Source of the DNA: Raillietiella orientalis
Lineage: Eukaryota
Assembly: GCA_036172245.1 (NCBI GenBank)
Contig: JAYWIR010000045.1
Span: 682,001 to 746,000 of the forward strand
Length of the DNA stretch: 64,000 nt
Direction: 5' to 3'
Under the pieces are notes generated by a model that did not search any database, was not told the origin of the DNA, and saw only the letters and a list, made by a program, of their open reading frames with translations. Position numbers and translations under genes: made by a program. Positions within the stretch are counted from its first letter, which is position 1; every line of letters begins with the position of its first letter. Shown here one piece after another: positions 14,042 through 45,200 of this stretch.

Positions 14042-14093
14042 TCTTCTTCCCCTCTCCATGGCATCTTCTGGTGCCATGGAGAGGGGGAGGAGG
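14042..14093. repeat. Hairpin: 15-bp perfect core, ~24 bp with G-U pairs
   Basis: cccctctccatggca (14049-14063) pairs with tgccatggagagggg (14072-14086). Confidence 0.85.
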
Positions 14094-16606
14094 AGTGAGA
14101 GTCAGGCAAAAATTAGCGACCATTAGCATTTGCGCAGGAAAAGGGTGCTCTGGGTAGCATGGGAAAGGGGAAACGATACAGATAGGAAGAACGTTCTGGA
14201 GTAACATTGTGGATCGACGATGTTCAGTTCTTCAGCACTTCTTCCCCTCTTTAAGGAGTTGAGAGAGACGAAAAACGACACCAGTAAAAACGCAGAGTTG
14301 CTGACTTCCAAGGAGCAGATTGGGACCTGGAGGCGGTCGAAAGCCGTGATGAACTCAACTGAATGTCGTCTCAGCAAGCTGGTGACCCTCAAGAGGATTG
14401 CCAAAGAAAAGCTACGCAGATGGCTCCATATCTTTCCTTCCCTCTTCTTCCCTCCTGATGCACTGCTAGGGAGTGAAAGGAAGGAGATGGAAAAAGAAGA
14501 GGAAAAGAAGGATGAATGATGCCATCAGTGCTGTTGTTAATAATGGTAGTGTTGACAATGACGATGGGAGGAGAAATGGGGGAGGAAATTCCATGCTCTG
14601 CTTGGGGACGCCTGGAGGCAAGCAGCTTTCCAAACCATGGACACGGGCTCCTTCCTCCGCTGGATCCAAAGCACGACCACGTCCTTCCTTGAGCTGCAGC
14701 GAGACCCCAGATGCGGGCTCGCTGCTTGCAAATTGCGAAACCAAGGGTAAGGGCGACCACTCCCACCTCGCGGCCGAGGGAAGAAAGCTTTTCTTCCAGT
14801 GATGACGAAAAATCCCCCATCAATTTGGGAGTTTTCTTGTCGATTTCTTCCGGAGGCTATGGAGGTCCTGGATTCTCCCTTCTGGGAGCATCACGAAAGG
14901 GACCAGTCACTATCTGGGACCGTCTCACCTCCCGCGAAGGGAATGCTCAGTTGCCTTCTGCACCCAGGGTGACGGCGACTGTCTTGATCTTCTCTCCGCT
15001 CCTCGGTCTCTCACGAGCTTCTACTCGGCCATGACCCACATCAAACGTATTCATCAACCTAGCATCCCTCTTTTTTTGGAGTGGTCGGAGAGAAACGAGT
15101 GCGGGAGAAAGAAGGTCGTTCCCGGTCTTCCTCCTTCCCTCTCCCTGTCGCGCCTCTCCCGCCACTCGGAGGAACATCCCTCTGTAGCGCGGGACGAATC
15201 ACGCGCAGTCTCCTCGCACCGGCCGCCGATCTGGATCGAAAAAAAAACCACGAAGCATCTTAGGATGGCGACGAAGTCCGTCCTGCGCCATTTTCCCTGC
15301 TTCCCCATTGCGCGCCGCTTCCCTCCTATCCAGGACCGTCGTCAGGGAGCAGCTGGCAACTCACAATTGATTGCGAGCGCGATCCCAGGGAAGGGTGATC
15401 GTTGAAAAGATGGATCCTGTTCAGGGAAGGCGCGCATGGTTTCCTGTTTCCTTTTCCGAGAACGGAGCGGGTCGCCTGTCTCTTTGGGCTGGACAGAATC
15501 GTCGGACGGAGGCAAAGAGCAGGAGAAGGAACGTACGCTTCCAGGGCTCCGTTGCTGGCGCGGTGCTCGGTCTCTCCTCAGCGGGGGAGTCTCGCTTTCC
15601 CCGAGATCTCAAACCCTCGCAAGCGGCCGAGTCTCCAGCATCCGTCCGGGACGTCTCTCTCCTCAGAGCAGGGGAAAAAAGAGCGCCGTCGCCATGGCAG
15701 CGGAAGGGGAAGCTTCCCGGCATCAGCGGCAGTGGCGGAGGCGGCGGCGGCGCGACTCCCGGTTCGCATCGAGCGTCCCAGCGGAGCAGATGCCGCCGTC
15801 GCCGCTAAAAAGTTTTGCCTTTCGGGAGCGGTAGCTCCGGAGGAAGGAGGACGTCTCTCTCTCATCCCCAGCATCACCAGTTAATGATACGAATTTGTTA
15901 CAGCCTGACACGCGGATGAAGCATGGTGCTTCCAGGAGCGCGTAATTTTATTTTCCCGTCCTGGGAGCTTTTCAAAAATCCTCCTGGATCCGAGTGAGAG
16001 ATGGGGCGCATAAACTCATGAGAAAATCTCCCAGGAAACAATATGGGACACCGAGGAAATGAATCTCGTCCCTCTCCCTGAATTCATCGCTCACAGCAGC
16101 TGCTCCCAGAGATGTGTTCCTTGCTTTCCAAAACTAGGGAGCCAAGGATGGGAAAATACCCGCTACGGATGGGGGGTCACCGTGCAGCGTAGACGGCCGT
16201 TGCCATACCGTGCAATCCCCGTGGAAGGGGCTGTTGCCATGCGACCCCTGGAAGGTGATGTCGCTCTCCTGTTAGTGGGAGGAGTCTGGGTCTGCACCAT
16301 GGGGTCCGCCAGGTATTGGATAGAGGAGAAAGCGAGTCCTTCCTTTGACATCCTTGGGAACAGAGCCGGAAGAGGCCTTCGCTCTTGAGTTTCTGCCCTT
16401 CCGGGTTCCACCGGACCCAGCAGTCAGCAGCACCTCTCTCGTCTTGCAGACCGACCGACCGAAGGGCATCCTAGTAGTGGCCATCTCGCGAGCCTGCCCT
16501 CTGCTTCCTCTCTGGAACCGCGTCAGCCTCTAGGACAGCCAGCCAGTGGCACCTCGATGGGAACCGACGATGGAAGCGGATGATCTGCGCTCCTTCTCAG
16601 AACCGA

Positions 16607-16673
16607 GAATAGCGCAGCTCCCAAGGAGAAGTTTCTGCACGAGGACAACTTCTCCTTGGGAGCTGCGCTATTC
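16607..16673. repeat. Perfect 27-bp inverted repeat with 13-nt loop
   Basis: gaatagcgcagctcccaaggagaagtt / tctgcacgaggac / aacttctccttgggagctgcgctattc. Confidence 0.97.
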
Positions 16674-18999
16674 CCGAACAGACAACGTTGGATAACCGGA
16701 CAAGAGACGCGCCGCACGTCTAATGCTCAGAACCCTTAGAGCATCAAACGCCGGCACGATGATCCCTGGATGGCGCTGTCCAGGAGGAAGCTGTCAGAGT
16801 TCTACATAAGAGCTGCTTCTCCTTCGGGCACAGACGTGTGCACTCTAAATGCAACCCACCTACCTATCGGTCTCTGTGCCTAAAATGTCACCATGAATAC
16901 CAGGCACCGGACTTTTCCCTTCTCTATGTTACAGGGGTTGATCGCACATCCTAAAGTGATCATTGGGTGTCTTTAGCATGTTTGAGGTATCCCATTCTAC
17001 ATCTGGCCCTGCCACCATTAACCCTTCCTCAACGGCAGCCTCGTTGGGACTCTCTCTCCTTCCCTCTCCAGGATGCTCTTGGCATAATCATTACTTCACT
17101 CAGGAGCCCCAGCATCGTCAGTCCTGGACATGGAGTTTGAAAAAATACCCTATCGTAGAGCTGCACTGCTTTCCTGGAGACGGTTTCGGAGTAGGAACGG
17201 GCAGGCTGCGTCCCTCGCCGCGCGCCACCGGTCGCTGCCACCTTCCCCTTGCTCCTGCGGGTCTCCTCCGCTCGCGGGCAGCGACACTTTCCCTTCCTAC
17301 TTTCACCTCCCGAAATGCGCCCGTCCTCGTTCTCGGGAACCCAGATTAATACGGAATGTCGTTGTCTGAGAGCGGAAGCCACACAGGTGAACTCGTTTCC
17401 CTGGATTACGACCGCGTCGTCTTCCCAGCGACGGTATCACCAAGAGGTCTCTCGAGCTCCAAGACCAGGAGGTCCGGTAGGTGACGAGGGGCAACCAGCC
17501 GGGCTTACAGAGCGTGTGGGAGTGTAGAAGGAGGTTATATGGAAAAGGAAGGGTGGGAATGGGTTCCGAGACTGAAACAGGAAGCCTCGACCCCACCCAC
17601 TATCATCATTTGAAAGGATGCCTTTTTTTTCCTTTCTCCTTCCAGGTTTCTGTGGAGAGCGACCTTCCCCCTTCCAAGCACGCTTCCTTCACAGTTCCCT
17701 CCTCTCCTGCTGTCCCAACAACTCCTCCCCCTCAGCTGCCTACTGGTTATGGCGGCTTCCCTGTTGTGCTCGACCGAGTGATCTTGTGAGACTGCGGAGA
17801 CTTGCTTGCTGCTGTGCGGGGAAGGGGACACCAGGTGCCACACTGGGGCGCCGATCCTTCCGCGAGCGTGGAACGCATGCCGTGAGGTGGCGCTGCAACT
17901 CACCTTCCTTTCCGCTCGTCTCCTGTCCCTCCCTTTTGCTGCACAGGAGGAAGGGATCGATCTACCTCCCCCCTCCCTTCCTGGCCCATCTCCGTCCTCG
18001 GATGCGTGGAGATGAAGCACGCGCTTCCCTCAACCCCCCCCTCACTCCACCCTTCTAAGTGCGCACCTTTCACAAGGACTGGGTAGTAAACCTTGGTTCC
18101 TGGGAACGAGGAGGACAGACGAGGTTCGGGAGATGGAAGGAGGAGCAGAGGATGCTGCTGTCCGCGAGCGGAGGAGGCACGCGGGAGCAGAGGGACAGGA
18201 GGAGTCTGCCCGTCCATCCTTCGCATTCCGCTCGGCGCCAAGTCCCGGGAGTGAAACCGTGAGAGGAGAAAGAGGAAACGCTCCCAGACTGCTTCTCTAG
18301 GAGCCTGGCACGCGTTTGAGTCGGAATGGATCAGTGCTCAGGTCAATTGGTCCTTTCACTTTCGGAGGCGAGTTCACAGAAGGGCGATGCGCCTCCCGGC
18401 ATCGCCTGAGCGGGCCAATGTCAGAGTCCTCTCTACTTGACGGGGTCTGGAGCACGCCCGCAGGCGTTCACAAGTTCCCTGCGGCGCCGATCCTTTGAGG
18501 TGCCCGCTGCTTCTCGCACCTGCGATTGGCGGTGCGCCGGAGCAACCGGTTCGGTTCGAACCGACCTGGTTGCACCAGCGAGGAGCCAGCCGAGTTTTTT
18601 TCCCTCCAGCTGAGCTGCCGCCTGAGATCGCGCAGATAGAGCATCCCCTCTGAGAAGGCGTCGTAAGGGGATCTCACCCCCTCCCGTTCCCTGAATCGCA
18701 GTGCACTTCGTCTCAGCTTCCTCATTCCCGTGGAGAGCTTAGGAAGGTTTCAGGATCTCTCCTTCCAAACGAGTCGACCGCATCCACAGTCTTCCGACAA
18801 GCCTATGGAGGCACTTCAGCAATTCGGGAACAGCGAGGCCCCTGCCCCAGCGGCCTCTTTGCCTCCGGGGACTCCGAAGAGGGTCCCAGACTCCCCAGGG
18901 AGCGAGCGAGCAGGGAACCGGCGACCCTTCTCTCTCCACGCATGAGTCTCAAACATCTCTATTTATTTTATTCATTTTGCCCCATCTCCTCAGCTCCGC

Positions 19000-20021: not shown

Positions 20022-21800
20022 CTACTCCCGGAGGATGACGTCTGCCCCAGGAAGAAGGATCCATGATCTGCACATCGAAGGCATCGGTCCGAAGCTGACT
20101 GGGCAAACTGGGGCCCGATGTCGGCGCAGGGCACGTACCTCCCCAGATCCAGACATTTCGTGACAAAGGATGTTCACGCCTCTTCCCCTTCCAACACGAG
20201 TGAACACCTCCCGCGCGAAACCACCCGCAAGCGCCTCGCCAATCAGCGAGCGTCTGCAATCCGAAATAAACATCACATACAGCTCCGTCTCCCGCCCCTC
20301 ATCCCAATCCACAGCATCACTCATTCTGATACCGCATTTACCCTTCCAAAATTTCGCGTAATCTTCGGCATCCATCACTTTCAACGCAACCTGCGGTACC
20401 ACAAATCACCGCTCTTCGCAAAGCACCTCAACACGTCAAGCTCACCTTCCCCGTCTCCCGGCACCCATTAGGGATGAAATCGGTCAAAAGGAACGGCGAT
20501 AAATTAACAGCGCGCCCAATACGGATTTAATTGCAATCCTGCGTAATCGGCCAGGGTTCATCCCGGAAGCTGGGAATCTCGCGTCCGCACCTCCTGCGAT
20601 CGATTTCGTCTGTTAGGTGTTCGGGGGGGGTGGGGGTGTCGCTTCGTCCGCGCGTGGCTCGGTAACCTGCGGGCGGCCGGGCCCCCGCAGCACGGACAAA
20701 GGAATCCCGCGAGGTCTCGCGACAGCCTTGGGAGAGCAGCTCCTCTATTGGGAAGCCGACAGGGAAGCCTTTGGAAGAGAAGGGCGAGTCAGGGAAATCG
20801 GGAGCGAATGCAGTCGTGCGCCTAGCAGCCGAGGAGTCGGCAACTCCGCCGCTCCCGTGTTCGTGGTCAAGGAAAAATCTTTCGCGGCTCGCCGTTCCGG
20901 GATCTCCCGGAAGTTCGCTTCCCGGCGCCATCTTGCCTACCGAATACTTTTCTTTTTTCGAGCGCGCACCGTTTCCTCCCTCCCCCACCCTGCGCCCGCG
21001 GAAAAACGAAAGCTCGCGAAAGATCCGGGGCGGCCGGTGCGCTAATGAAAGTTTACTTGCGGAGAAGGGATCTCTCGGGCAAGCTTAATCCTCCGCACTG
21101 GATGATGGATGCCGCGAGTCCTCGCGCTGCAGACCCTGTACAACAGGAGATACAACGCTCCGGCAAGAAACCGGAAGCTCCCTAGCCTGAGAAGGCGGTG
21201 GTGGCCTCGCTTCCATTCCGAGCGCCCACCCCTCCCCCTTTCACCCCGGTCGGGAAACAGGGACGGCATCCACGGTGTTTTCTCTCCCTGTGCTCCTCCT
21301 CTTAGCGTGCTCTCCGGAAAGAGATTTTCTCGCTCCCGCTTTTATGCCATCTCTCTTCCTTGGGAACCCTCAAACGCAATTTTTTTATTCTGTGGGGCTG
21401 ACGGGGAAATGCGGCTACGTGGTGGCTCACGCAGCCGCGTTTCCGCAGTATCCCATGGTCCCATTTGCAGCCCACGGTATCACATGGTATCCTATTCTTG
21501 ACTTGTGAAGGGTTGCAGATCCAACTTTCCTCGGCGCCATCGGTGATAGCACAGAAAAACTCCTCACCTCGCCGCATCGCTGGCTCCCCATTCGATCCAA
21601 GGGCCGTGTCGCCCCAGCGTGACTGATGGATCGTTCAGAAAGATCATTCAAAATCTTGTCTGCACCCGCGCTTTTCTGCTCAGCCTCCACATCGACTTGT
21701 GTACACTTCGAGTCCCCTTTGACGTCACGCACCGCCTGTCTCAGCTTAGTTGCTTCCCGCCACGTTCTTTCGAGATCCTTTGCCCGGACATCCCACACTG
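20022..21800 (-). pseudogene. Decayed pPolB, N-terminal region through endonuclease-VII-like motif
   Basis: DRMGSQ (GSGW), ALYLLLY..GIHH (LLLY..HY), KVMDAEDYAKFWKGKCGI (MTxEDxxxFxxAxxCHIC), DCRRSLIG (DHCHLTG), VNILCHEMSG (PVxFHNLSG). Confidence 0.55.
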
Positions 21801-23278
21801 CTTACAGCACTAACGGCCAACTCTTTTCTAGATTTCTCACAGAAAAAAAAAAAAATGCAAAAAAAATCCATTTGCAGAATTTTTTCCCCCCCTCCCTTCG
21901 AAAGGATTCCATCGCTAGGAGATGTGGTCTAGGAGCAGTGCGTGCTCTACCCACGGGATAGAAACTCGGAAACCTCACGGGCACTCCGCGTTTCGCCACC
22001 GCTCTCCGAACACTTCTCTCCTCACGCTCTTCTCTTTCCTATTCTTTGCTTGTGCCTGCCTTCCACGTGCCTCCTCCTTCGCCTGCCTCAGCTTCAACTG
22101 GAGTGAGGATTCCAGAAGCTTCCCCAGCCTGTTCCTTGCAATCCAGAACCTTCCTTCCGGGATCCCACACGTCAGGGACAGAGATTCGAAAGTTTTCGCC
22201 TCGAAGACCTGGTCGCACCACGAAGGGGTCCAGGACTCGACATCCCGACCTCAAAGAAGCTGAAGCTGCACTGCATTCTAGTTTAAGGCGATGGCCCGGA
22301 TGGCTGAGAACTGGATGCAGCGTTGGTGCCTCTATCTGCGTGCGAAATCCTGGGCGTGTGCGGTCGGTTGAGAGGGCATGGCATCGTTGTTACCTGGTAG
22401 CCGAGGCCGCACGAAAGCTCTGGGGTTCCCACCGAGACAGATCGCTTCCCTGTAAGGACATCAATGGATCTCCTGCCGCCGTGCAGACCACAACGCTTGG
22501 CGGCAGGAAACAGCGGACACTGAATCCCCATCGCAAGCTCAGACGCAGCCCTAATACGGCCCGTCCACAACCTGGGAGCAGTCTCTCTAAAGGAAGCGGG
22601 AAGGGGCAGAAAGTGGGCCCGAGCCACTTTTACCCCTCCAGCCGCAGGTTTGTCCTCTCTACGGGAGAGAAATAACAGGTTGCCAACCGGCAGGATCGGT
22701 GAGCTTGTAGCAGGAGCGACGAAATTCGTGTGTCGATGGGCGATGGGCCAGCGGACCGACTCGGCAACGCCCTACTGCTCGCGCTAGAGGACCGCTCCGT
22801 TTGGGCAGCAGAATACCTGGGCATTCCGTCGTAGGAGATGGTGACCCCTCCCATCCAGGTGGCAACATGAAGAGGCATCGCTGCTCGCGCTCTGGGTTTC
22901 CCGCTCAACAAGCAGCGTCGTCGTCGTTGGACGAGGGGGAGGGGTACCTCGAATCGCACCAGTCGCGGGGAGGAGGCAGAAACTTTCGACGCACCTGCTG
23001 CAGGATTGCGGTGGCCTTCGAAACGCCTCGCGGCTACCCTGCTCCGTCCCGAAGACACTCCTGAAGAGCTACCGCGGCGCTGCTTCACACGGGACGAGCT
23101 GCCTCCCTCCTCTAAGATAGCTCCATCCCTTATTGCCGCAGGGGGATTGTGACGTCCCGCAGTACCGAGGAGACACTCCAGCAAGGCAGAAGGAGCACCC
23201 GCCTCAAGCGGTGCCAGAATGGAGGAGGACGCCGCTTGAATCGCACTCCGACTTAAGAAGGTGCGGATGGACGTAACC

Positions 23279-23420
23279 GGTGACCCCTGTCCCTTCTTCC
23301 CCTTTTCATTTATTTGTTTATTGTTCCCCCCCTACAGCCTGCCTTCCTTCCTTTGTGGACGTCCTGAGCGTCAGTGGTTTTCTTTCCTTTTTTTTTCCTC
23401 CCTTGAATTTTTCGGGGACC
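23279..23420 (+). repeat. Short GTGACCCC-bounded T-rich element
   Basis: Starts gtgacccctgtccc, contains catttatttgtttattg, ends near tcggggacca. Similar to copies at 42099, 42895 and 43312. Confidence 0.5.
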
Positions 23421-23549
23421 AGTGGATTTCTTAGTCCACGTGGACTGTTGGCTTCCTTTTGGGAAGGAAACGCTCCAGCGCGACCGGATGAAAATGCAAG
23501 CCAGCACTTTCCCTCCTAGACCTCAGACGCCAGCGACAGGGGTTCGAAA

Positions 23550-26257
23550 GGTCCCTTCAAACAGCTCGAAAGTGTCTTGTAGTCGTGACAGGGAACATGG
23601 GTGAAGGAGGAGGGGAGCTCCCAGACGAACTGTCGGGGTAAACCTGCTTCGAGAGTCCCTGCGCCCAGCTTCATCTCGGGAAAGAAGAAGGAAAAGAAAA
23701 ACATGCATCCAGAAAGCGAGCAATAAATGATTTATGCGCATCATTATGAGGAAGAACGGTTTTGGTACTGCAGGTCTTGTCCGGTGGCCGGTGAGGCTGG
23801 AGGACTGACAACGAAATCGGGAAGTAATAATACTTGACTTCCAGCCTCCCTGAGGTACAACAGCGTCCTCCGGTTTCGCCTCCCCTGATTTCACGAAGAT
23901 ATCGGGAATTGATCATGCAGAGAGAAATCACTCCTCTGGATCGGGAACGCTTCCGGGAAAGCGATTTCGAGGATGCAGAATGAGCTGGCTTCGCAGGGCT
24001 CGCGTGGAAACGCCACGCATCCAGGTTTACGCTTGAAGGACGCACGCGTTCGAAGCACACGCGTTGCAGTGGCACGCGAACGCCCCCGCCCGCGGTAGCG
24101 CACGGAAGCTCTGTGGGTACGTATGACCTTCCGCCCCAGCCTCCTCCTTCCTCTGCAAGCTGTTAGTGGTCTGGGCACTTTTGCGGACAACCCCCTTCTT
24201 TCATGGGCGACTCCGAAGTCCGCGGGGGCGACGAAAACAGGCCGAAAGGCTGCCGGCACATCAGAGCGCTAATTGTGAATTGTTACCAAACGCAGGAGAG
24301 CACAGCGCCTTCCATTTGCGCTACATAAGTATTTAATGTCCTCCCGAACGTTGTCAAGAGTGTTGCGAATGGCAGTTGGTGTCTCTTTTTATGATCATCA
24401 GCTGCGAAAGTAATTAGATTAATTGAGAATAGCATCCTGGTGGCGACAGTAACGTTATAATCTACGTTCACATGGATGCCATGGAGATAAATGCCTTGGT
24501 AGCTGGGAACAAGGAATTGGAATCCTTTTATCTCTTTTCTGAGACGCTACTTCAGCAGTCATTAGCATCAGCACCGATAGCTATTACATTTACTACTACT
24601 AAATTCTTTTGAGGCGATTCGCGCCTCCAATGATACCCTCGGAGCGAACGCCTTCCGGGGACTTCCCTATCGATTTCCTCCGAACTTTTTTGCTATCTTC
24701 GGACAGGGATCATCGAAGTAGGACGAAATTTGACGTGTCCCCCACCTGAGTACTCCTCAGCATTCGAATGGATCAATTTCAGGACATCATCTTCCCAATA
24801 TAGTTGCAGTCAGTATTTCAAAAGCACCTCTGATCGCCCAGGGTGTTTCCGAAGAGATGTCATCCAGTGCCAGACGCCAAGCGAGAGCGTTGCAGTCGGA
24901 AATGAACGCAAAAGTCCAACGGATACGAGGACATCATAGAAGAGCATCTAAAACATTGAGGATCACACAGAGAAACGCAAGGGGCGGGTTTCCTCAGCTT
25001 CCAGAGCCTCCCTGCCCTGCTCTGCCCGGATTCGCGATTGCTGGCGGAAGGACGGCATGCCCCCGGGAGATACGCCACATCCGCTTCACTCCTTGCCAGC
25101 GTCGAGCAGGTTCGCCTCCGTAGGTTTCCAGCCTCGCAGCCCTCCTCCCGGAACTGGCATTCTCGTCGCCTCTGAGCCCCACACCTGCCTGCTTACGCGT
25201 GTGGGCTCTGCCCGGCTCTCCGGGTCGTTCGCTGGTCCTTTTCCGGCGACCTAGCTGTCCAGGAGGTGGCGACCCGGAAAAAGACCAGCGACCGATCCTT
25301 TCCCGGTCGCTTGGACCGCATCCGAGACGGTGGGCTCAGCGGATGCCCGGGCCGTTCGACGGCAGCATCCGCTCGCACGCACGGACGCAACAAGAATAAA
25401 CGACAAGATGGAGAAGATCGGAAAGTCATTCCGGACGGTTCCAATCCTCTCGCCGAGAGGAGCTTGGGAACGTTCCTGGAATTTCCAGCTCCTACGGGAC
25501 ATTGCCGTTCCTGGGATCCCGGGATGCCGACGAGCCTGCGACAAACGGAGGGCGAGCTGAAGTTCCCTCTTCCGAAATCAGTGCGAGGGAGAGGCGAGCG
25601 CCGGATCCCGATGGATTTCTCTTTCTCTCTTCGCTCGCGCGCCTTCCCGAATGCCGCCGCGGTGCTTTCGAACGAGCAGCGCAAGCCCGGCAGCATGGTG
25701 CGGCTCCCTCTTTTCCGGAGGTGATCAGGTCGCAACGACGTCGGGTTCCCTGCACCGCATCGCAGTCCTTCCCTGGAATTTTCGAAACGGGGCCTACCTG
25801 GCGCTGCTGCCCCGAGAACCAGGGCTTTCGAATACGCGGAGCGCTCCGACGTCAGACGTGCCTGCGAGGGGCGCCTCTCGAGGGAAACGCAAACTCTCGA
25901 GGAAATGTTGCCGCAAAGAAGAGGAAGATGTGCAGCACCACCCTGGAAAGACCACGTTCACAGGACCTCAGCGTGCCCTCGGCACTAGCTTGAAGGAAGA
26001 AAAAAAGCAAGAGAGACTTTTCCATCCTCTCCTGGACGCCGCAGAGCATGCTCGCAGGAGCAGCCCTCGCTGCTGCTTTCTCCGGAGAAAACCACCGGAA
26101 GTTCAGCCATCATCGGCGGAGGAATTTTCAATAGGTCACGGAGATTCCGGATGTTCGAACAAGGTTGCTGGTCATCAGAAGACGAGAACGAGAGACCTGC
26201 ATCGCCCCAAGCGCCGTTCTCTTAGGAGGACTCTGCTCGATTAGGGATTGCGGAGGT
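23550..26257 (-). pseudogene. Decayed pPolB, middle to C-terminal region
   Basis: LPVVF in the inverted-repeat arm, FISDCNALAW (~24907-24877; motif A), AADDHKK..TFGRTLN (ORF 24283-24471; motif B), EPCEASSFCILEIA (KPIYxGFCILELSK), GLPRQFVW (GxxIxEFVG). Confidence 0.65.
24959..26257 (+). repeat. 1,299-bp inverted repeat, left arm
   Basis: Reverse complement of 27491-28789 (paired coordinates sum to 53,748). Mirrored ORFs are identical; one mismatch seen near the outer end. Confidence 0.97.
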
Positions 26258-26399
26258 TCACCTCTTGAAGTATCAAAAGTTGCTGAGGATCACAGGGAAG
26301 CAAAGAGAGGAAAGGAGGTGCTGCATAAATTTTTCAATCAGCTGTCCTCCTATCGAGGAGCATGTGAAGACCGTGAAAGCAGATAACATCCCTGATTTC

Positions 26400-29350
26400 A
26401 GCGCTACCCTCTTTTGTGTGCCTGTCTTCGCTTTCTCCTAAACGGGAGGTTGAAGGAAAAGAATTGTTGGAAGCGCTAAGAACACAGCAAAGGTGATATA
26501 CATATTCGAGATGTCTGGTAAATCCAAACGGCGATTGGCAAGAAGACAGCTTTGGGTCCACGATTTTGGGATTAAAGACTTTCCAGATGACTAAAGAAAG
26601 CTTTTGGTTCCAGCATTCCAAAGCTCTCTGAAGTTGCAGATGAAGCTTCGGATTTCGAATCAGTTAATACGGGATAAGTTGGAAGAGGGAAGCGGGGATG
26701 GATCCCTAGACGATTGCTCAAGTCTGGATGACAGTTTCCTCGATTTACAAGCAAATTCCGTACCACTGGAGTTTTGCACTCTTAACGTGCTGAGTTCATT
26801 TAAGCAAGAGCGGTGCTGTCTTGTAATCCCTCGAAGCAAACGGGATAAACAGGAAAGCAGGATGTCGTCAGAAAACGAATTATAGGAAGCAGCTTTGGAG
26901 ACCTCGGAGTGAATTCCTGTTCATAAGACACCTTGCTTCATCGCGTACAACAACCGTGAATCTTTTGGGGAGCTGAGCATCGCGGTACCTTCACCGGAGA
27001 TGAGTTTCTCATCTCTATCAATCAGTAATTCGGTGTACGCAGTACAACTAGAGTCATTTATTGATGAATGTGTACGGAAGGCGAGGGATTTGAGCACCCT
27101 CCTCCCGAATGGATTACCTCCAAGAGGATGCATTACATTTTATAAAAGAGCAGGGTATGGGAACATTCCCATTCAATATAAACGGATACGCAGATATGAA
27201 TAGGAACGGATCTCAACGGGATACGCGCAGCACGGCGCATCCCGTAGAGAAAAATTTTATGGCACATTCGTCTTCATCGTACACGCGCCAAGCAGTTTCG
27301 AACGTGCGCGTCCGCACGGGCGCACTTTGATCTTAGCCCAAAGGCCGAAAAGGGCAGGAGCATCCAGAGTGCAAATCAGGCGCGACAAGAGGATCGGAAT
27401 AGGTCACTGGCAATGTGCAAAATTTCCTTGGAAGACCTGCACAGAAAAGAATCTCTTTCGTTCCCATCCTGCCAGAGACCATCAGGATGCACCTCCGCAA
27501 TCCCTAATCGAGCAGAGTCCTCCTAAGAGAACGGCGCTTGGGGCGATGCAGGTCTCTCGTTCTCGTCTTCTGATGACCAGCAACCTTGTTCGAACATCCG
27601 GAATCTCCGTGACCTATTGAAAATTCCTCCGCCGATGATGGCTGAACTTCCGGTGGTTTTCTCCGGAGAAAGCAGCAGCGAGGGCTGCTCCTGCGAGCAT
27701 GCTCTGCGGCGTCCAGGAGAGGATGGAAAAGTCTCTCTTGCTTTTTTTCTTCCTTCAAGCTAGTGCCGAGGGCACGCTGAGGTCCTGTGAACGTGGTCTT
27801 TCCAGGGTGGTGCTGCACATCTTCCTCTTCTTTGCGGCAACATTTCCTCGAGAGTTTGCGTTTCCCTCGAGAGGCGCCCCTCGCAGGCACGTCTGACGTC
27901 GGAGCGCTCCGCGTATTCGAAAGCCCTGGTTCTCGGGGCAGCAGCGCCAGGTAGGCCCCGTTTCGAAAATTCCAGGGAAGGACTGCGATGCGGTGCAGGG
28001 AACCCGACGTCGTTGCGACCTGATCACCTCCGGAAAAGAGGGAGCCGCACCATGCTGCCGGGCTTGCGCTGCTCGTTCGAAAGCACCGCGGCGGCATTCG
28101 GGAAGGCGCGCGAGCGAAGAGAGAAAGAGAAATCCATCGGGATCCGGCGCTCGCCTCTCCCTCGCACTGATTTCGGAAGAGGGAACTTCAGCTCGCCCTC
28201 CGTTTGTCGCAGGCTCGTCGGCATCCCGGGATCCCAGGAACGGCAATGTCCCGTAGGAGCTGGAAATTCCAGGAACGTTCCCAAGCTCCTCTCGGCGAGA
28301 GGATTGGAACCGTCCGGAATGACTTTCCGATCTTCTCCATCTTGTCGTTTATTCTTGTTGCGTCCGTGCGTGCGAGCGGATGCTGCCGTCGAACGGCCCG
28401 GGCATCCGCTGAGCCCACCGTCTCGGATGCGGTCCAAGCGACCGGGAAAGGATCGGTCGCTGGTCTTTTTCCGGGTCGCCACCTCCTGGACAGCTAGGTC
28501 GCCGGAAAAGGACCAGCGAACGACCCGGAGAGCCGGGCAGAGCCCACACGCGTAAGCAGGCAGGTGTGGGGCTCAGAGGCGACGAGAATGCCAGTTCCGG
28601 GAGGAGGGCTGCGAGGCTGGAAACCTACGGAGGCGAACCTGCTCGACGCTGGCAAGGAGTGAAGCGGATGTGGCGTATCTCCCGGGGGCATGCCGTCCTT
28701 CCGCCAGCAATCGCGAATCCGGGCAGAGCAGGGCAGGGAGGCTCTGGAAGCTGAGGAAACCCGCCCCTTGCGTTTCTCTGTGCGATCCTGAATTCTTGGA
28801 TTCTGCTTGTGATTCTCACTGGTATGCCGAATATTGAAGATTGCAGCTCAGAAGGGAAGGCCTGGAAGACGAAAAAGGTGGTAATCCTGTGAGTGTAGTT
28901 CTTTCGTTTTCCCGTCCCCGGCCTTTCCTTGCTTTGTGTCTCCCCTCCCCTTTCTTCCATCTGAATTATTGATCTACGTGCTTCCATCGCGGAGGCATCA
29001 CGAAGTGGTCATTCTTATTTGCTGGGGGTTTCGCTGGGTTTGCGCGAATACGATCACTTGTAATCCACGGTTCCCGGTTTCCTTGAGGGTTACTTAGGGA
29101 ATAGTTGTGCTGGTCAAATGAGTATTCTGGTTGTGTGCGTCTCGGAAACGATTCTTCGCTTCCGTTCGCCCTCTCCCTCTCCAATCTGACCCCAAGGGGA
29201 AGGGAGCAGATCGTGTTCCTGTTAGCAGGGCTACTCCCGAGATCCATTTTCAGCTGCTCATAATTGGAGCCACGGTCGAGAGAGCACCTAGGAAGCGACG
29301 TCATCCGGAGAGCCATAATTAGTAGACAAGAAACGACAGTTTTTTGGCTC
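26400..29350 (+). pseudogene. Decayed pPolB, N-terminal region to near motif B
   Basis: EEGSG/W (26682-26702), SISNSVY (ISINVY), HYIL*K, GHWQCA, LPVVF (27647-27661), IEDCSSEGKAW (~28835; motif A). Confidence 0.6.
27491..28789 (-). repeat. 1,299-bp inverted repeat, right arm
   Basis: Reverse complement of 24959-26257; spacer 26258-27490 (1,233 bp). Confidence 0.97.
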
Positions 29351-29499
29351 AGGGCAGCAGGCAACCTGGTCGAGCAGATGCTCACTGGGGAGGGAGCAGC
29401 GAAGAACCTGCTTCCACGTTCCCCGGCGAGGTACGAGTGCTTATACGGCGATCACCATAGCAGCAAGGGTGGAGGAAGGGGAAAGAAGCATCCCGTGGG

Positions 29500-31030
29500 G
29501 TCAGGGCCGGGTCGTTCGTGCTTGGGCAGGTGAGATCCTCCGGTGGTGGCTCTCTCCGGTGACGCTAAAGCGTCCGAGAAGAAACCGCCGTGCGTTTCTC
29601 CCCGACACCCCGGGCGCCGTACGTCGGAGGGACAGGCAGAACGAAAAGGAACATCTCCCTCGCTCTCCTCCCTCCCAGAGGGACACGGCTCTCTCAGGAA
29701 GCGGCCTCGCTCTGTCGCCGCCGTGTTCCACCATCCATTCCGCTGCCTGATCGGAGGAACCGCCGCCGCCGAGGCAAACTGCGCTGCCCGTAACCTCGTT
29801 ACGCGTCCTGACTAATCAACTCCAGCTTCCGGGAGGAAATTCGTTCGAAAGGTTCTCAACGTTATTGGGGCTAAGTGATTTTTAAGGCGCCAGTCTGGTT
29901 TGCTTGCAGTTGGGTTCCTCGGAAATTGGACGAGATGATGCTTCAGTGAGATCGTGGGCACCGGTTCGTGGAGGAAACGGGAGGACCAGAAGCAGGGAGG
30001 AAGGAAATGGGGAGGTATCGATTTGGAGGATTGAATAGAAGCTTTCCCCCACCGGAGGGATTGTGCACTGTAAGTTCGGTTTGGCGGGAGGGTGTTGTAT
30101 GCCACAGCATTCTGTGAGACCAATCGGCCTGTGTTTTGCAGCTTTGGTAGCAACGCGCCGCGGCACACGTAAAGTTAATTGACAGTTCCGAAGATGCTTC
30201 TGGGAAACGACGAAGCTGCCGATTTGCAACCTCCGTGATTATCTTGAGAATTTTCGACCATAGAGTTCCTGGTAACAGCTGGGATCTCCATGGCTTCGTC
30301 TCGAGGTTTCCGAAGCGGTTTCCCTCAATTTATTTATTTTCCATTGGATTTCTTTTTCAAATTGCAGCAGAGTCTGCAGTCATCATTTTTCGCTGATGGT
30401 ATGGGTTGGGTAAAGTTTTCCTAAGATTATAAAACTTGAGATAATCGTATATGCAGAAACCTCAAAATTTCTTTTTTGTATATTTACGGGAATTCTTGCA
30501 CCGTTTAATAGATGGCACTGTTCGATGCAAGGGTCCCTCTGTGATTAAGATCCATAATTAGCATGGAGAGCGTCTTGGAAATCGTGACACGGACTAAAGT
30601 ATTCCTCATACTGAGAACTCGACGAACTGATTGATCTGCTTGGAATCCAGATTCTCCGATGATTGATAATGATGGATCCTCCTAGGAGTATTCTCAGCTT
30701 GAAGGGAAAGCTGCTTTGAAGTCCAACAGGTGATCTTACGTCTGGCGGACATCTTCGTTTCTTGTACGCACAAAGAGCCTTTTTTGCTTGTTGTCCCCTG
30801 GATAAGCCGAATAAGCTGCACGCTCCAGACCCAGGCGATGCAACATCGTTCCTGCATTCTTGACGTAACAACAAGTTCAAGAGATGCTTGGTGGAAGAAG
30901 ATCCGGTGCACCCTCTTGCAATCAGCCTGATTCGTCCAGGATGGGAGGACTTCCCTATGAGTGACACAGGCGTAGGAGCAGAAAGAAAGCACCCTCTGCA
31001 TCGTGGATGCGGATTTGTTGCAGCTGCGTA
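29500..31030 (+). pseudogene. Decayed pPolB, C-terminal half with motif C
   Basis: DTPG, LIGG (IRGG), KLPICNLRD (~30212), HGERL..DTD (30586-30594; YTDTDS), FKRCLVEEDP..LIR, EQKESTLCIVD (EQNKxALSxxDDKR). Confidence 0.65.
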
Positions 31031-31099
31031 TTGTGAACATCATGAGATGCGAAGCAATGGAAGAATCATCTCATCCAAATTTAGAAACAAAAACGATAC

Positions 31100-31550
31100 A
31101 CTTCTCCCCCTAGTGATGGCCTCTTTTCCCACAGGAGAACAATCAACTAGGTGGTGATGGTAATGGTGACGGAAGACTCCATTGGGAAGTAGGTGTCCTC
31201 TCAAATGCGTTGGAACTTCGGGAATTGAATTCCCCGAGTTCGGCAGACAGCAGCCGGTAGGGACGTTGATCCCGAGACCGGAAAAAATGCGAGATACATT
31301 CGGTTCCTTCCCGGCTAGTTCTCGCTGCACAACTTTCCCCTGACTCACTCACCTCAGGTGACGCCGCCTGGACATGTCCAGTCAATGTGATTAGCATCAG
31401 GGAAGTCCACCCTGAAGAGATGAATTGAAGCAGCTCGCAAAGTGCTGAAGAGCCGTTCGGCTCCTCAAGGGGGAGCTCATGAAGCTCTTTAACGCTGATA
31501 CACGCCACCTGAGGGTGCATGCAACTCTTCGATTTAAAGGACGACTCCGT
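31100..31550 (-). pseudogene. pPolB fragment
   Basis: LLQFISS (LRFIDS) then HLLPNGVF (LLxKGVFPY). Confidence 0.35.
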
Positions 31551-31559
31551 AGGGACCAC

Positions 31560-32141
31560 CCTATGAGTCCAGGAAGGATCCGGAGGAAGGAGTCTGTTTC
31601 TCTTACGCTTGGAAGGGAACCTCGAAGGGAATCTCTTCCTTATTCTCTACGAAGGGGTCCCTCGGAGGGAACCTCTCCTGGAATTTCCCCTCCGGGAGGA
31701 ACCTGCAAGGGGCTGCTCCTTGTTTCCTCCTTCTCTGAAGAGACCCCTGAAAGGACGCTTCCAGATTTCTCTAAGTGGTCCTCTCCCCGAAGGAGGCAAC
31801 GCGCTTCCCGCACTTTGGAGAGACATCCACCAGCTTCGTGGTGCACGATGGAGGCTCCTCTTCGAGAGGGGAGACGGCCCCATTTGCACAACTGGAGAGG
31901 AACGACCCCGAAGCGAACCTCTCTTGTTTCCTGGAAGGATCCCGGAGGGTCGAATTCCAATCACAGTCAGTCAACGGAGGCAGTGCTCCACCCGAAGCTT
32001 ATGTGCCAACCAGCGTCGTCCTGTGGGAGGGATTGGAAACCCACGACGCACCCCCCGTTATCTGCGTCGATCCTTACCCAGGAGGGATTCGAACCCTCAA
32101 CTCCTGGTGCTACTCGCGTAGACCACACCTATGGGGCTGCC
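31560..32141 (-). repeat. tRNA-headed structured element (SINE-like or Pol III ncRNA), ~580 bp
   Basis: B-box/T-arm gggttcgaatccc (32096-32084), two further T-loop-like hairpins, and many short hairpins including cUUCGg loops. Colinear with 52620-53197. Confidence 0.7.
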
Positions 32142-32649
32142 AATGCGGGCTAAAAGAGAAGGGGTGAGCTCAAGGTGAGAACACCGCTTCGTCTTCGGTT
32201 ACGGAATCAGGGCCGTTGTTGCCCATTCTGATGCCCACGGAGATTTGGGCTGCTGTTAAGCTAGTTGCGCTCCAGGAGCCAAATCGACTACCTCTTGTCC
32301 TCTCGCCAGAACTGGATCTTCTGTGACATCCCCCTAACGGCGACTCAGCACCAGGAGCTAAGCAGAAGAGCTTTCCTTTAGGGAAAGCCTCTTCCACCAA
32401 TGAGGCTCGAACGAACCGTCAAACTGGAAGCCACAGACAATAGTGTGCCGCGCGTGTTGCCATCCTCCACTTCGAGGTGGACCGCGAGGAGTCGGCAATT
32501 GTAGAAATTGCGTCATTTCTGAGGGGCAGGATGCAGATCGCCGGATCGCCGGATTATGCACGGATCGCCGTCATCATTGCCACCATCGTCATGGTTCATG
32601 CACTTGCGGCAACCTTCATCTTGTCCAGAAGAAGAAACCATCGAGTGCT

Positions 32650-35600
32650 TGGCCCCGTTGCGGAGCAGCCAGTCCGCTGGAGCTTGGGGTTGACACCCAG
32701 TACTGGGTGGTTCGAGGAATCTTGCTCTCGCTAATTCTGCATCGCATTTCGAATTGAGCTTAGCGAATCGCCACGCTTCTTGGCGACGAGGCCAGAGTTT
32801 CTTCACCTGGCATCTAAGGATACGGGACAGTGGCTTCCTCTCTCACTACGCATCTTTGGCATGGCCACTCCCGCATTGTCTCTTACGAGCTCTGCTCGTC
32901 TGGAAGGGACGGAAGCACGCATGAAGCAGAAATGGGAGCACCTCGTATCACCTCCAGTACAAGCGAGATGCTGAGCGCGTGATGCCGCCACTATTCAGGA
33001 GAAGCGGCTCTTCTATGATCCGTTCCGCTTCCCAGGACGAAAGCGCCATTCTCCTCCATGCTGGACTGCGAGAGCGCAGGTGGGAAACTCGGACTGAGAG
33101 CGAATAGGAAGTCCCCCATCATAAGTTTGGGTTTGCCTTTCTCAGAGGTGCAGCGTGTCAGATGCAAAAATAGAAAAGAATCTTTGCCAGATGCAGACGT
33201 GAAAGAATTATGATTTCCAAATTTCACGTTCGGGGATGGAAAGGAGACCACACGAGCAACAGATGGATATTTAGGGGGTTGCATCTCCGGTTGGATCCAA
33301 GCAAAGGGATGCAGACCCAGGAGCGACATCAGGATGCTTTGGATGGCAAAAAAACAGTGTTCGACCTAGGCAAACGCCGGGAGCGGGTCTTCGAGAAGGC
33401 TGTGCCGAGAGTTGCGCTCGTAGACTCCTCGTTCGATGCGAGCGAGTGAATCGCTCCCAGCCCGCGCACCACGCAACGCATCGCACCGTGTGCTCATCCC
33501 TCATCCCAAGGCGGAACGCGGGAGCGAGGGATACTTACCTGGCTTCGAGGCGTTCTTGGTCACCATGGAGATCCCTCCAGAGTGAGGCTCGATCATGCAC
33601 TGCGATTGGACGGACCTCTGAGATAACCCCAAACGTGGGTTACTCGGAAGCATAATTTTTAAGGCGGAACGCGCATCTTCACTGATCCAGGTGTGGACCC
33701 GGATCTCCATCGGAGGATCGCGTCCCGCTGATCCGGGACGCTTTCCGCCCGATGGAGAACCCTTTCCGCACCGCCCACGAGGTGCGGCTGAAGAGTCCGC
33801 CTGCGCGGGCACCACCCACCAGGGACGAGAACGCCGGCAGTTTGTGACGGAGGGGAGCGGCGCGGGAAGGCGCGCGTGCTCAGTCACTGCGTCAGTGAAG
33901 AAACCATCGTTGCTGAAGATGCGGCGAACCAGCGGCCCGGACCAGACCGAAACTGGTCACCGCCTCGGAGGCGACCGAGGGCAGGTAACGGACTCATGTC
34001 CCGGGACTCATGGCTCCAGGATGCGACGGCATGTGGTGGGTGTTCCGTGGAGAGGCATCTGTCGTCCCTTCGGAGACTCGACCGCGACTGCGGAAGCGTT
34101 CCGAAGGCACGAGCGAGGGTGGCTCTCTCGTTTGACGGTGGGACGACAGGTGGCACGCATCGGCAACGACATGGCGTGTCCCGCTATTGAAGATGCCACC
34201 CCCATGGAGCGGCTTCCACCCTCAGAGAAGCGATTAGAAAGCTGGCGGTAGCCAAGTGCAACCCTGGATGAGGAGGAAGCAGTCCCGTTCGGCAGGAGGT
34301 ACCCGAATAATAAGGGAAGAGCGGACTGATTGTGGAAGCGGTGGGATATTTCCGCATTGCATCCTTCCTAACGCTGCGGCCAAGGGTCAGCCTTTCCCAG
34401 CCTTCCCTTCCGAAGTCGACTTGCGCTGCAGCCGCAAAGCACCTGGCATGGCTGTTCTCCATCGGTGGTCCTCGTAGCGCTGGAAGCGGGAGCGCGGACC
34501 GCGGTGGACTGCTGCTGTTGCTACTGCCGCACCCAGCACGCCTCCTCCGGGTCGTCACGAAGGAAGTCGGCAGCTCGCCTGCAGCCCGAGTTCCCTTCCG
34601 GCGGAGCGGGCCGTGACGGGGAGCGATGCGACCACCAAACGGCGAAATCCCTTCTCGTGCAGGACCTCCTCACCGCCGGGTCGGGTGTTCCCGCGGACGA
34701 GATCAGCCTTCTGACTGAAACCACCTCTGCATTTCACTTCGATCCTTTCTCTTGCAGGTCTTCGTGCGACGCCTTGTGCCCGCGTTCGTGGAGGTGCGCG
34801 GCAGTTCTGATCTCTGGCATTCGTCCGATCTGCAAATGAGGCGGCCCTGCCGCCGTTGCAGATCCCAGCTTTAACGTGGTCGCGCGCGGACTCGTCCGAG
34901 AGATCCGATGTCCTTGGCAGCTCGTGGGACTGACAGCTGGTTGGTTGGTTCCCCTCGTTTTTTGTTTTCCGCTGACAAGACCGGAGCGAAAGAGATTCTT
35001 CCCTGTGTCCTCCAGGAGACAGGTCCTCCAAGGAGATTTTGCGCACGGCCAGTGACCTGTTCCGAGCATCTCGCCGCGCACGAATCGCGCGCGCTGTACG
35101 CTCCGGACGCCTGTACGGGAATTCCTCGTAGGTTCTGCGCGGTTTGGAGATCCGAAGAAGGACCTGGTGATGGGCGAGACTTCCGAGGAGACGGGTGGCG
35201 CGCATCAGGAAAGACGTGAACACGGCGGCCGTTCCAGAGACGCGTGGTGGAAGCATCCACCACTGGCATCTTCCTAAGGAACCACAGGCTGCTGTGTGGC
35301 CGGGATGGAAGGGACAGTCAGGCTGCGAAGGCGGTCGAAGGTGCCTCCTCCTTTTCGTTTCCTTGACCTCTCCTGCTTCATCTCTTTGACAGTGTGGAAC
35401 GCCGACTCTTCCAGCATTTTTCTCGGCTCGCCTTGTTCAGAGCCGCAGTGGGCTGCTGATGCAAAGGCCTGGCACGTACGTGATCAAAGGAACCACATAT
35501 CTAAACCGTCTTATTGATGAACTGGTTCGTGTTGACGAAGCCTTCACGGGAGCAAGTCACGTGTTCTCTTCATCTTGAACTGTAGGCCCGTGCAAGAGAG
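32650..35600 (-). pseudogene. Near full-length decayed pPolB
   Basis: Contains the 1.98-kb repeat motifs, then EREIWK..SGK (motif B, ~33230-33185), TGGDTRCS (motif C position), RFAKLNSKCDA (32770-32738; EFVGLRSKxYA). Confidence 0.6.
33366..35345 (+). repeat. ~1.98-kb near-identical direct repeat, copy 2
   Basis: Matches 7441-9420 at offset 25,925. Confidence 0.97.
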
Positions 35601-37559: not shown

Positions 37560-38100
37560 GGAAGTCGAGTCATCACAAGCAGTGTTGCCTGACCGCCGAA
37601 ACTCTGCAGCAGCAGCACTGGAAGAAGTGAGACAAAGGAAAAGACACCGAGTATAGGCAGCTGCTCTTCTCTCTTTCGCGCGCGCTTCTCGGCCTTTTGG
37701 CTAAGATCAAAGTGGCGGAGGACACCGCAGGATGGAAGTTGGTGTCGGTTGTGCCTAGGTCCGATTCCAACCAAAGATCGGATCCGGTGCTGCAGAAGGC
37801 GAATCGGGTATTTGTCCTGAAAGTCTCTTGTCCCTTCGAAAACAAGGAAGAGGCATAATTGGAAAAAGAAAAGAAGCACCAAGAGCTCGCCTTGTCATTC
37901 ACGAGAAAAGGTCTCCAGGCTCAGGTACGTGCATTTATTGTAGGTGCGCTAGGATCGTGAAACACTCGGAAAAATGGAGTCATTCGTGTGTTGGGCATCC
38001 CGAGGCGATATGCGGATACAACGAGGCGCTTGACGGTGGCGCCGTGTGTCTAGTATAGCAGGAACATCTACTCGACCCACCGTCTAGGACATCCTCCAGA
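37560..38100 (+). mobile_element. 3' end of an R2/NeSL-like non-LTR retrotransposon (restriction-like endonuclease domain), decayed
   Basis: Single frame from 37742: QRSDPVLQKANRVFVLKVSCPFENKEEA*LEKEKKHQELA..VRAFIVGALGS*..LGIPRRY..RRL..SRNIYSTH, matching the RLE pattern RPD..DVTCPFEN..K.KY..IVGALGSW..SRNIY..H. Confidence 0.8.
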
Positions 38101-44880: not shown

Positions 44881-44888
44881 CTTCTGTT

Positions 44889-45200
44889 GCCGGCCGCGTA
44901 GCCGCGGTCTCCACGTGCGGTACCGAGCTTTGAGGGTTCGAATCCCCACCGGGGGAAGGACCGACGGCGAAAAATGGGTGCGTCGTGGGTTGCAAGTCCC
45001 CCCTTCACTCCGCAGGATGAGGCTGGTTGGACCGTAGGCTTCGGCCGCGACATTGGATGTCCCTCTGACTGGCCAGGATTGGAAGTCGACCCTCCGGGGT
45101 CCCTTCCTGGAATCAAGATGTCGGTTTCCTTCGAGGTCGCTCTTGTGCCTCTACTCAGTATCGCAAACGGTGAGGAGTGATAGAAGGAGCCTTTCACGCA
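44889..45200 (+). repeat. tRNA-headed structured element, 3'-truncated
   Basis: gccggccgcgtagccgcggtc (A-box-like), gggttcgaatccc B-box (44934-44946), ggcttcggcc UUCG hairpin (45037-45046). Confidence 0.75.

What the first reader, a model, noticed from the sequence alone, without database searches (positions are those of the whole stretch)
24959..28789. 1.3-kb near-perfect inverted repeat of pPolB sequence: hairpin-RNA candidate made by conversion
Seen: arms 24959-26257 and 27491-28789 with a 1,233-bp spacer. Beyond both outer ends the sequences stay in pPolB register but are diverged (DPQCF..SDCNALAW vs DPEFL..EDCSSEGKAW). Inference: two older head-to-head paralogs were recently homogenised. 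Any read-through transcript would fold into ~1.3 kb of dsRNA, a potential endo-siRNA source against related polymerases. The spacer could also be invertible.
Basis: partly seen in the sequence, partly recalled or inferred. Interest (0 to 1): 0.7.

Follow-up and report, generated by a model that had tools for sequence, protein, structure and literature searches.

The report
Inverted copy of dead retrotransposon fragment
A 1.3-kb piece of a long-dead jumping gene sits twice, in mirror image and 1.2 kb apart, most likely because a recent DNA-repair slip pasted a backwards copy next door; it is not a polymerase gene and nothing shows that it makes a silencing RNA.

Summary
The inverted repeat is in the assembly as described: 1,299-bp arms, one mismatch, 1,233-bp spacer, two copies found in the genome. 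The arm holds a decayed restriction-like endonuclease remnant of a NeSL/Utopia-type retrotransposon. The flanks resemble each other for only about 40 bp. An exact 11-bp direct repeat brackets the left arm alone, and the DNA on its two sides shares composition and probably one decayed reading frame. Best reading (0.55): a recent local templated insertion, right arm donor, left arm recipient, primed by microhomeology. Main rival (0.2): long-run GC-biased arm-to-arm conversion; both arms, and four other near-identical pairs nearby, are GC peaks, which the insertion reading does not fully explain. Assembly chimera 0.12. A read-through RNA would fold, but no RNA data exist, and no exact 21-nt target was found in 961 kb searched. 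The scan noted similar GC-rich inverted pairs and template-switch scars on other DNA of this genome (unchecked notes). Ordinary kind, low interest.

The parts
24959..26257 (-). Left arm; inferred recipient copy (inserted block 24968-26283)
   Evidence: bracketed by the 11-bp direct repeat; GC 0.61 against 0.45 on both sides
27491..28789 (+). Right arm; inferred donor copy
   Evidence: longest bracketing direct repeat only 6 bp; GC 0.61, inner flank 0.48-0.53, outer flank 0.51
24957..24967 (+). First copy of the 11-bp direct repeat; holds both outer-end differences between the arms (24958, 24965); matches the donor end 28781-28791 at 9 of 11
26284..26294 (+). Second copy of the 11-bp direct repeat (target-site-duplication-like)
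   Evidence: position-constrained null 52 of 200,000
26258..26283 (+). 26-nt filler between the left arm and the second repeat copy; short hairpin-forming; no template longer than 9 nt within 22000-31000
   Evidence: hairpin seen
24920..24958 (.). Outer homeology zone, partner 28790-28829; 14 of 23 ungapped matches over 24945-24967
27998..28289 (+). Decayed, frameshifted RLE (PD-(D/E)xK) endonuclease remnant of a NeSL/Utopia-type non-LTR retrotransposon: PD block 27998-28129 and GSWD block 28203-28289
   Evidence: tblastn E 8e-5 and 1.75e-4, profile iE 0.002, unbiased DNA profile E 5e-4, pairwise E 8e-6
25459..25750 (-). Mirror copy of the RLE remnant in the left arm
27178..27356 (-). Decayed, apparently full-length U2 snRNA-like sequence in the spacer, below the Rfam cut-off
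   Evidence: 20.6 bits, E 0.026 in a 251-base search; collinear with a genomic U2 3' part at the Sm site and stem III
27357..27475 (-). About 120-bp local repeat (73% to 9047-9180 and 34972-35105) lying between the U2-like sequence and the right arm
26283..27200 (+). Decayed reading frame in the spacer: 5 stops in 306 codons against 15 and 19 in the other + frames; no relative found
   Evidence: P 0.019 over six frames; no homologs
24734..24967 (+). 78-codon open run in the left flank, in register with the spacer frame across the 11-bp repeat (other frames 5 and 2 codons)
   Evidence: P 0.048
28453..28523 (+). Small internal hairpin of the arm (22-bp stem); mirror at 25225-25295

Best explanation
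A recent, one-off templated insertion. The left flank and the spacer were once continuous. At a break or stalled fork at the 11-bp site, a 3' end paired by imperfect microhomology with the end of a GC-rich stretch 1.2-2.5 kb away that holds a dead retrotransposon endonuclease remnant. It copied about 1.29 kb of it in reverse, added 26 filler bases and rejoined so that the 11-bp site was doubled (MMBIR/template-switch type, return point before the leaving point). The result is a neutral inverted repeat. Shown: arms, direct repeat, homeology, compositional match of the two sides. Inferred: direction, single event, repair pathway, lack of function.
For: An exact 11-bp direct repeat brackets the left arm only: p 0.003 against 3,000 random intervals, 52 of 200,000 with position constrained. 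Both outer-end arm differences fall inside it, and the donor end matches it 9 of 11. GC is 0.452 left of the arm and 0.448 right of it; dinucleotide distance flank-to-spacer is 0.004-0.008 against 0.026-0.040 flank- or spacer-to-arm. The low-stop spacer frame is in register with the only long open frame of the left flank (P 0.019 and 0.048). 0 mismatches in 1,292 bp. No homology beyond about 40 bp. Junction microhomeology and inverted nearby templates are described for MMBIR insertions (PMC8421209, passages); events with point 4 before point 1 are described in PMC7954356 (passages). In the neighbouring 2-kb pair a truncated U1 copy is 131 of 140 identical to the best U1 with no GC skew (2 W>S, 4 S>W), which fits recent copying.
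Against: The presumed donor is itself a GC peak (excess 0.113 over its flanks, p 0.003), and its outer end falls on a GC step (best split 28773, interval 28734-28800); a one-off copy gives no reason for that. The RLE segment is the most GC-rich of 33 homologous segments, with W>S 26 of 74 against S>W 12 of 68 (p 0.023). 9 of 10 copies of the five near-identical pairs in 664 kb are GC-elevated, and none of the other 8 copies has a bracketing repeat over 8 bp. The filler is not an exact copy of the donor's continuation but loosely resembles it. No empty-site paralog was found. Published MMB insertions come from within about 100 bp and are short. The frame statistics are modest.
Confidence: 0.55

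Rival explanations
1. An old inverted duplicate (perhaps born by the same kind of insertion) kept near-identical by recurrent GC-biased arm-to-arm gene conversion, while its edges eroded.
For: Both arms at GC 0.61 above all four flanks; all 4 junctions lie inside the 2-unit interval of the best GC split; GC-skewed substitution in the RLE remnant, while the single-copy Utopia piece at 37.7 kb shows none (11 W>S, 13 S>W); ends fade through 20-110 bp of partial identity in most of the 7 pairs examined; elevated arm GC is documented for primate X palindromes (PMC8981503, passages).
Against: The two 11-bp copies are identical although adjacent edges would have diverged by about 30% (rough chance 0.02-0.03, my estimate); no homology beyond about 40 bp; the inner GC split of the right arm is best placed 373 bp inside the arm; no GC skew in the U1 copy of the neighbouring pair; single-copy DNA in this contig also reaches GC 0.60-0.66.
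Confidence: 0.2
2. Assembly or amplification artefact: a double template-switch chimera placed an inverted copy next to its source.
For: 0 mismatches in the 1,292-bp core; inverted chimeras are a known artefact of whole-genome amplification (PMC13265396, PMC6218980; search listing and abstract start only); the library type of this assembly is unknown; no read spans a junction.
Against: The contig runs on in unique DNA on both sides rather than folding back; 26-nt filler without a local template; four other pairs with the same GC and edge signature carry 2-6 internal differences each and lie 7-24 kb apart.
Confidence: 0.12
3. A retrocopy: an RNA from the right-arm element was reverse-transcribed in trans into a nearby nick, giving the 11-bp duplication and 5' filler.
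For: Duplication plus extra bases at the element's 5' side fit target-primed reverse transcription (recalled); weak alignment of the arm's outer end to one RLE relative (L065, p 0.005, one of many tests); at least 150 RLE-type copies in the genome, some with long open frames.
Against: Landing 1.2 kb from the source in 210 Mb; no A-rich tail at the outer end; arthropod Utopia make no target-site duplication (PMC4640811, passages); no U2 3' part at either outer flank.
Confidence: 0.08
4. A functional hairpin-RNA locus that makes endo-siRNAs. This concerns function and is compatible with any of the origins above.
For: A transcript across both arms would pair over 1,298 of 1,299 bp; Drosophila simulans has young hairpin RNAs whose arms derive from a transposon or lie next to their source gene (PMC10317233, passages).
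Against: 0 of 1,279 arm 21-mers match exactly elsewhere in 961 kb held (4 with one mismatch, 6 with two; longest exact match 16 nt); relatives are 35-54% identical over aligned columns; the only promoter-like cue, the U2-like sequence, points across one arm only; nearest Pfam-recognised gene in the window is about 34 kb away.
Confidence: 0.06
5. Terminal inverted repeats of a non-autonomous Maverick/Polinton or foldback-type DNA element.
For: Long arms around a short core; the outer ends read AG...CT (terminal rule recalled).
Against: No direct repeat of 4 bp or more at the outer ends within 4 bp, longest 4 bp in a wider scan; only two copies of the arm; no pPolB in the genome search; arms are retrotransposon-derived.
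Confidence: 0.02

Closest known systems
Templated insertions by template switching (MMBIR/FoSTeS; four-point model). PMC8421209 and PMC7954356, passages read
   Same: Reverse-complement copy of nearby DNA, junction microhomeology, return upstream of the leaving point giving a short direct repeat, new near-perfect inverted repeat.
   Different: Here 1.3 kb is copied from 1.2-2.5 kb away, against tens of bases from within about 100 bp in those surveys; 26-nt filler without a clear template; the donor is a GC peak.
Palindrome arms under GC-biased gene conversion (primate X). PMC8981503, passages read
   Same: Over 99% arm identity and GC higher in arms than in flanks.
   Different: Arms about 1.3 kb and gene-free; GC excess 11-16 points against 4-5; no outgroup here to show shared derived changes; a direct repeat brackets one arm.
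Utopia, U2-targeting RLE non-LTR retrotransposons. PMC4640811, passages read
   Same: The arm holds the C-terminal RLE motifs, matched by own-genome copies that sit in U2 genes.
   Different: No reverse transcriptase, no U2 3' part downstream, frameshifted; arthropod Utopia make no target duplication.
Drosophila hairpin RNAs (hp-ODox2, Dsim-hp58). PMC10317233, passages read
   Same: Inverted repeat made of transposon sequence.
   Different: Those are defined by transcripts, Dcr-2-dependent 21-nt RNAs and complementary targets; none is shown here and no close target was found.

Membership tests
Protein-primed family B DNA polymerase (pPolB, PF03175) | Match to the pPolB profile in the arm or its flanks | tested here: not met
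Protein-primed family B DNA polymerase (pPolB, PF03175) | Ordered motifs A, B and C (patterns recalled) | tested here: not met
   fuzzy scan gave only scattered single matches in unrelated frames
Maverick/Polinton | 6-bp target-site duplication around the whole structure (rule recalled) | tested here: not met
Maverick/Polinton | Dispersed copies or an autonomous partner | tested here: not met
   2 copies of the arm; no pPolB; searches give lower bounds
Utopia (NeSL-clade RLE non-LTR retrotransposon) | C-terminal RLE domain | tested here: met
   decayed; two collinear blocks, E 8e-6 to 2e-3 in five tests
Utopia (NeSL-clade RLE non-LTR retrotransposon) | Zinc finger upstream of the RLE | tested here: inconclusive
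   one alignment reaching 27833 at E 0.005
Utopia (NeSL-clade RLE non-LTR retrotransposon) | Reverse transcriptase upstream | tested here: not met
   own-genome RT-to-RLE profile found only the RLE in 21001-33000
Utopia (NeSL-clade RLE non-LTR retrotransposon) | U2 sequence from nucleotide 39 at the 3' junction | tested here: not met
   U2 3' profile from 30 loci gave no hit near either arm; so 'Utopia-like remnant', not a filed member
Templated (template-switch/MMBIR-type) insertion | Inverted copy of a nearby template | tested here: met
Templated (template-switch/MMBIR-type) insertion | Microhomology or microhomeology at the junctions | tested here: met
   outer 9 of 11 and about 40 bp (p 0.003-0.007); inner weak (p 0.04-0.06)
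Templated (template-switch/MMBIR-type) insertion | Empty ancestral site | tested here: inconclusive
   indirect only; no paralog or relative found
Palindrome under GC-biased conversion | Arm GC above flank GC | tested here: met
Palindrome under GC-biased conversion | Shared derived substitutions in both arms against an outgroup | not testable with these tools
   no relatives held; only distant paralogs
Hairpin RNA / endo-siRNA locus | Transcript across both arms and Dicer-dependent 21-22-nt RNAs | not testable with these tools
   no RNA holder listed
Hairpin RNA / endo-siRNA locus | Highly complementary target elsewhere | tested here: not met
   961 kb; genome search, lower bound

The most novel reading that the evidence does not exclude
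In the GC-rich, retroelement-strewn domains of this arthropod genome, kilobase segments that are local GC peaks are systematically copied into, or kept identical with, sites 1-25 kb away (5 pairs at 98% identity or more in 664 kb, all GC 0.61-0.64). If general, this is a genome-wide local-copying regime tied to base composition that helps build the GC domains and keeps spawning perfect inverted repeats from dead transposons, the raw material of new hairpin RNAs, and this locus would be a fresh case with its insertion scar intact.
Probability: 0.12. Interest if true: 0.55.

Novelty: new member of a known kind. Interest (0 to 1): 0.2.

Why it matters
As a single locus it matters little: a neutral inverted duplicate of dead retrotransposon DNA. 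Its value is as a test case. It carries signs of both a fresh insertion (intact 11-bp duplication) and GC-biased history (both arms are GC peaks), so a few population genomes would decide whether GC-rich near-identical pairs in this genome come from recent copying of GC-rich donors or from long conversion. The claim of an siRNA defence against Maverick polymerases should be dropped.

Tried and rejected
pPolB identity: all negative. Long flank homology: none. Outer flanks as decayed U2 3' parts: no hit. The local repeat at 27357-27475 as an snRNA promoter: no match to the upstream DNA of the 10 other U2 5' ends examined or of 11 U1 loci. The interrupted frame as a LINE ORF1 (resemblance recalled, by eye): PF02994 found nothing in the genome, and no homologs came; the Atlas look-up of this frame was not obtained, so a language-model match stays open. 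Empty-site paralog: none. RNA: no RNA holder listed. Run X1 (contigs only, share 0.07): two exact 151-nt pieces in the spacer, no cover on the arms, 8 of 25 pieces shown; says nothing on the junctions. Rfam at gathering score: only the two U1 copies in the window. Bacterial promoter scan is irrelevant to this genome. Fold of the spacer gave no shuffle control. The patch survey stops at 664 kb of one contig; a further 200 kb was not obtained. I did not search the literature to claim that anything is absent from print. No supplementary files were read; they may list longer templated insertions than the passages I saw.
Full report
Observation. The repeat is in the sequence. Arms 24959-26257 and 27491-28789 are 1,299 bp long and differ at one position (24965/28783); 24966-26257 has no mismatch in 1,292 bp. 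The window is G000:C45:682001-746000 of a 210-Mb genome in 491 contigs, and a DNA search with the arm returned 2 places, the arms themselves (a lower bound). The window lies in a GC-rich, gene-poor domain (GC about 0.55) beside AT-rich, CpG-depleted host-gene DNA. Of 150 ORFs scanned, only a DHHC exon at 63285-63875 passed a Pfam cut-off. The label 'arthropod' comes from earlier scan notes and is not tested here.

It is not pPolB. Eighteen stop-as-X frames over 21900-30500 gave no Pfam family at E 0.1 or better; 18 ORFs gave no PHROG. PF03175 over the genome gave 1 weak match on contig C2, an intron-flanked exon that I read as cellular Pol alpha (name recalled). These negatives cannot exclude a remnant decayed beyond recognition, but a positive identity was found.

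What the arm is. Searching the genome with the 254-aa arm ORF gave 9 weak outside matches converging on 28000-28150. RLE-bearing ORFs from loci where a retrotransposon tail abuts U2 hit the arm independently: PD block 27998-28129 (E 8e-5; pairwise E 8e-6) and, in another frame at the right spacing, the GSWD block 28203-28289 (sum E 1.75e-4). A protein profile scored 9.4 bits against at most 1.3 in controls. A DNA profile gave E 5e-17 with, and E 5e-4 without, the six loci found through the arm; I rely on the second. The family is abundant: 150 scored of 2,041 candidates, with RVT_1 in 4 of 7 ORFs scanned. PMC4640811 (passages) defines Utopia by this RLE, an RT and U2 from nucleotide 39 at the 3' end; RT and U2 3' part are missing here, so I call it a Utopia-like remnant. 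About 290 bp of the arm are identified; the rest has no clear match.

The spacer holds a decayed U2-like sequence at 27178-27356 on the minus strand (20.6 bits, E 0.026, below cut-off), a 120-bp local repeat at 27357-27475 and a plus-strand frame with 5 stops in 306 codons (P 0.019) that has no relatives.

Flanks. Anchored alignment shows resemblance for about 40 bp outside the outer ends (p 0.003-0.007) and weakly for 40-50 bp inside (p 0.04-0.06). Beyond that it is chance.

The insertion scar. The 11-mer TGAGGATCACA occurs at 24957-24967 and 26284-26294, bracketing the left arm plus a 26-nt filler. It occurs on that strand nowhere else in 664 kb. Chance: p 0.003 against random intervals, 1 of 13 intervals tested, and 52 of 200,000 with position constrained. 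Both outer-end differences between the arms lie in the first copy, and the right arm's end matches it at 9 of 11. GC is 0.452 and 0.448 on the two sides; dinucleotide distance between left flank and spacer is 0.004-0.008, against 0.026-0.040 to the arm; and the spacer frame is in register with a 78-codon open run in the left flank, where the other frames are open for 5 and 2 codons (P 0.048). The right arm has no such bracket (6 bp). I infer that the left arm was written into a continuous tract by template switching primed on microhomeology, as described for MMBIR insertions and four-point switches whose return point precedes the leaving point (PMC8421209, PMC7954356; passages). Those surveys concern much shorter events.

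Results against this reading. In 664 kb of the contig, 5 of 15 pairs of 300 bp or more are at least 98% identical (3 inverted, 2 direct; gaps 1.2-24 kb). All have GC 0.61-0.64, and 9 of 10 copies exceed their own flanks at p 0.022 or less, including the presumed donor (0.113, p 0.003). All 4 junctions of this repeat fall within the interval of the best GC split, tightly at both outer ends, loosely at the right inner end; 7 of 8 junctions of the two direct pairs do too, one uninformatively. The arm's RLE segment is the most GC-rich of 33 homologous segments (0.63) with W>S 26 of 74 against S>W 12 of 68 (p 0.023; six comparators were found through the arm). None of the other 8 copies has a bracketing repeat over 8 bp. 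This is what long-run GC-biased conversion predicts (PMC8981503, passages). Against it stand the intact 11-mer pair, the unskewed U1 copy in the neighbouring pair (2 W>S, 4 S>W) and single-copy DNA of equal GC in the same contig. I could not close this; weights are 0.55 insertion, 0.2 conversion, 0.12 artefact, 0.08 retrocopy.

Function. A transcript across both arms would pair at 1,298 of 1,299 positions, but no RNA holder was listed and the one DNA run does not cover the arms. Of 1,279 arm 21-mers, none matches exactly, 4 match with one mismatch and 6 with two in 961 kb that include 68 loci, many of them RLE relatives. Drosophila hairpin RNAs are defined by transcripts, Dicer-dependent small RNAs and complementary targets (PMC10317233, passages); the target test fails in what I hold, and the rest is untested. 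Spacer inversion by crossover between arms is possible in principle and leaves no mark in one haplotype.

Verdict. A real near-perfect inverted repeat of dead retrotransposon DNA, most likely a recent templated insertion; a new member of a known kind; interest 0.2. The open point worth pursuing is why every near-identical pair in this region is a GC peak.

Noticed in passing
window 7430-9425 and 33355-35350: 1,996-bp direct duplicate, 99.6% identical, 6 of 8 differences within 30 bp of the ends; each copy holds a U1 snRNA copy (7606-7740, 33531-33665) cut off just after the Sm site. It encloses the inverted repeat.
   Followed up: partly
G000:C45 about 784,870-786,750 and 810,170-812,045 (L017, L020-L021): A second, unrelated 1.88-kb direct pair, 99.7% identical, with nearly the same gap (23.4 kb against 23.9 kb).
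   Followed up: partly
G000:C45:382001-1046000: All five pairs at 98% identity or more have GC 0.61-0.64 and ends that fade through partial identity.
   Followed up: partly
window 37681-38150 (+): U2 5' fragment joined directly to a well-preserved Utopia RLE tail (tblastn E 5e-31, profile E 3e-65), with no U2 3' part after it.
   Followed up: partly
window 27178-27356 (-): The U2-like sequence keeps stem I and a perfect but re-lettered stem III, and its middle has become a GC-rich hairpin; it may be an old U2 variant rather than a simple ruin.
   Followed up: partly
genome-wide, L029-L058: 38 of 47 scored U2 matches pass the cut-off; the 30 printed all appear, by eye, to be U2 3' parts preceded by a retrotransposon-like tail, and no intact U2 was among them.
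   Followed up: partly
window 4700-5000 and 5240-5380 (+): Frameshifted histone H3-like and H2A-like remnants by eye (resemblance recalled); Pfam did not detect them at E 0.1.
   Followed up: partly
window 31469-32155, 44887-45142, 52821-53182: A repeat of about 600 bp with ten or more diverged copies in 264 kb, with a tRNA T-arm-like motif at one end (recalled); possibly a SINE.
   Followed up: no
window 6900-7220, 9047-9697, 53789-54124: Local repeat family of unknown nature in both orientations, 72-80% identical.
   Followed up: partly
L017:1295-1436 (+): U4 snRNA match just over the cut-off in the next GC-rich domain.
   Followed up: no
window 16596-16682 and 14040-14095: Short near-perfect palindromes.
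   Followed up: no
window 61500-63875 (-): Host DHHC palmitoyltransferase exons at the AT-rich edge of the domain.
   Followed up: partly
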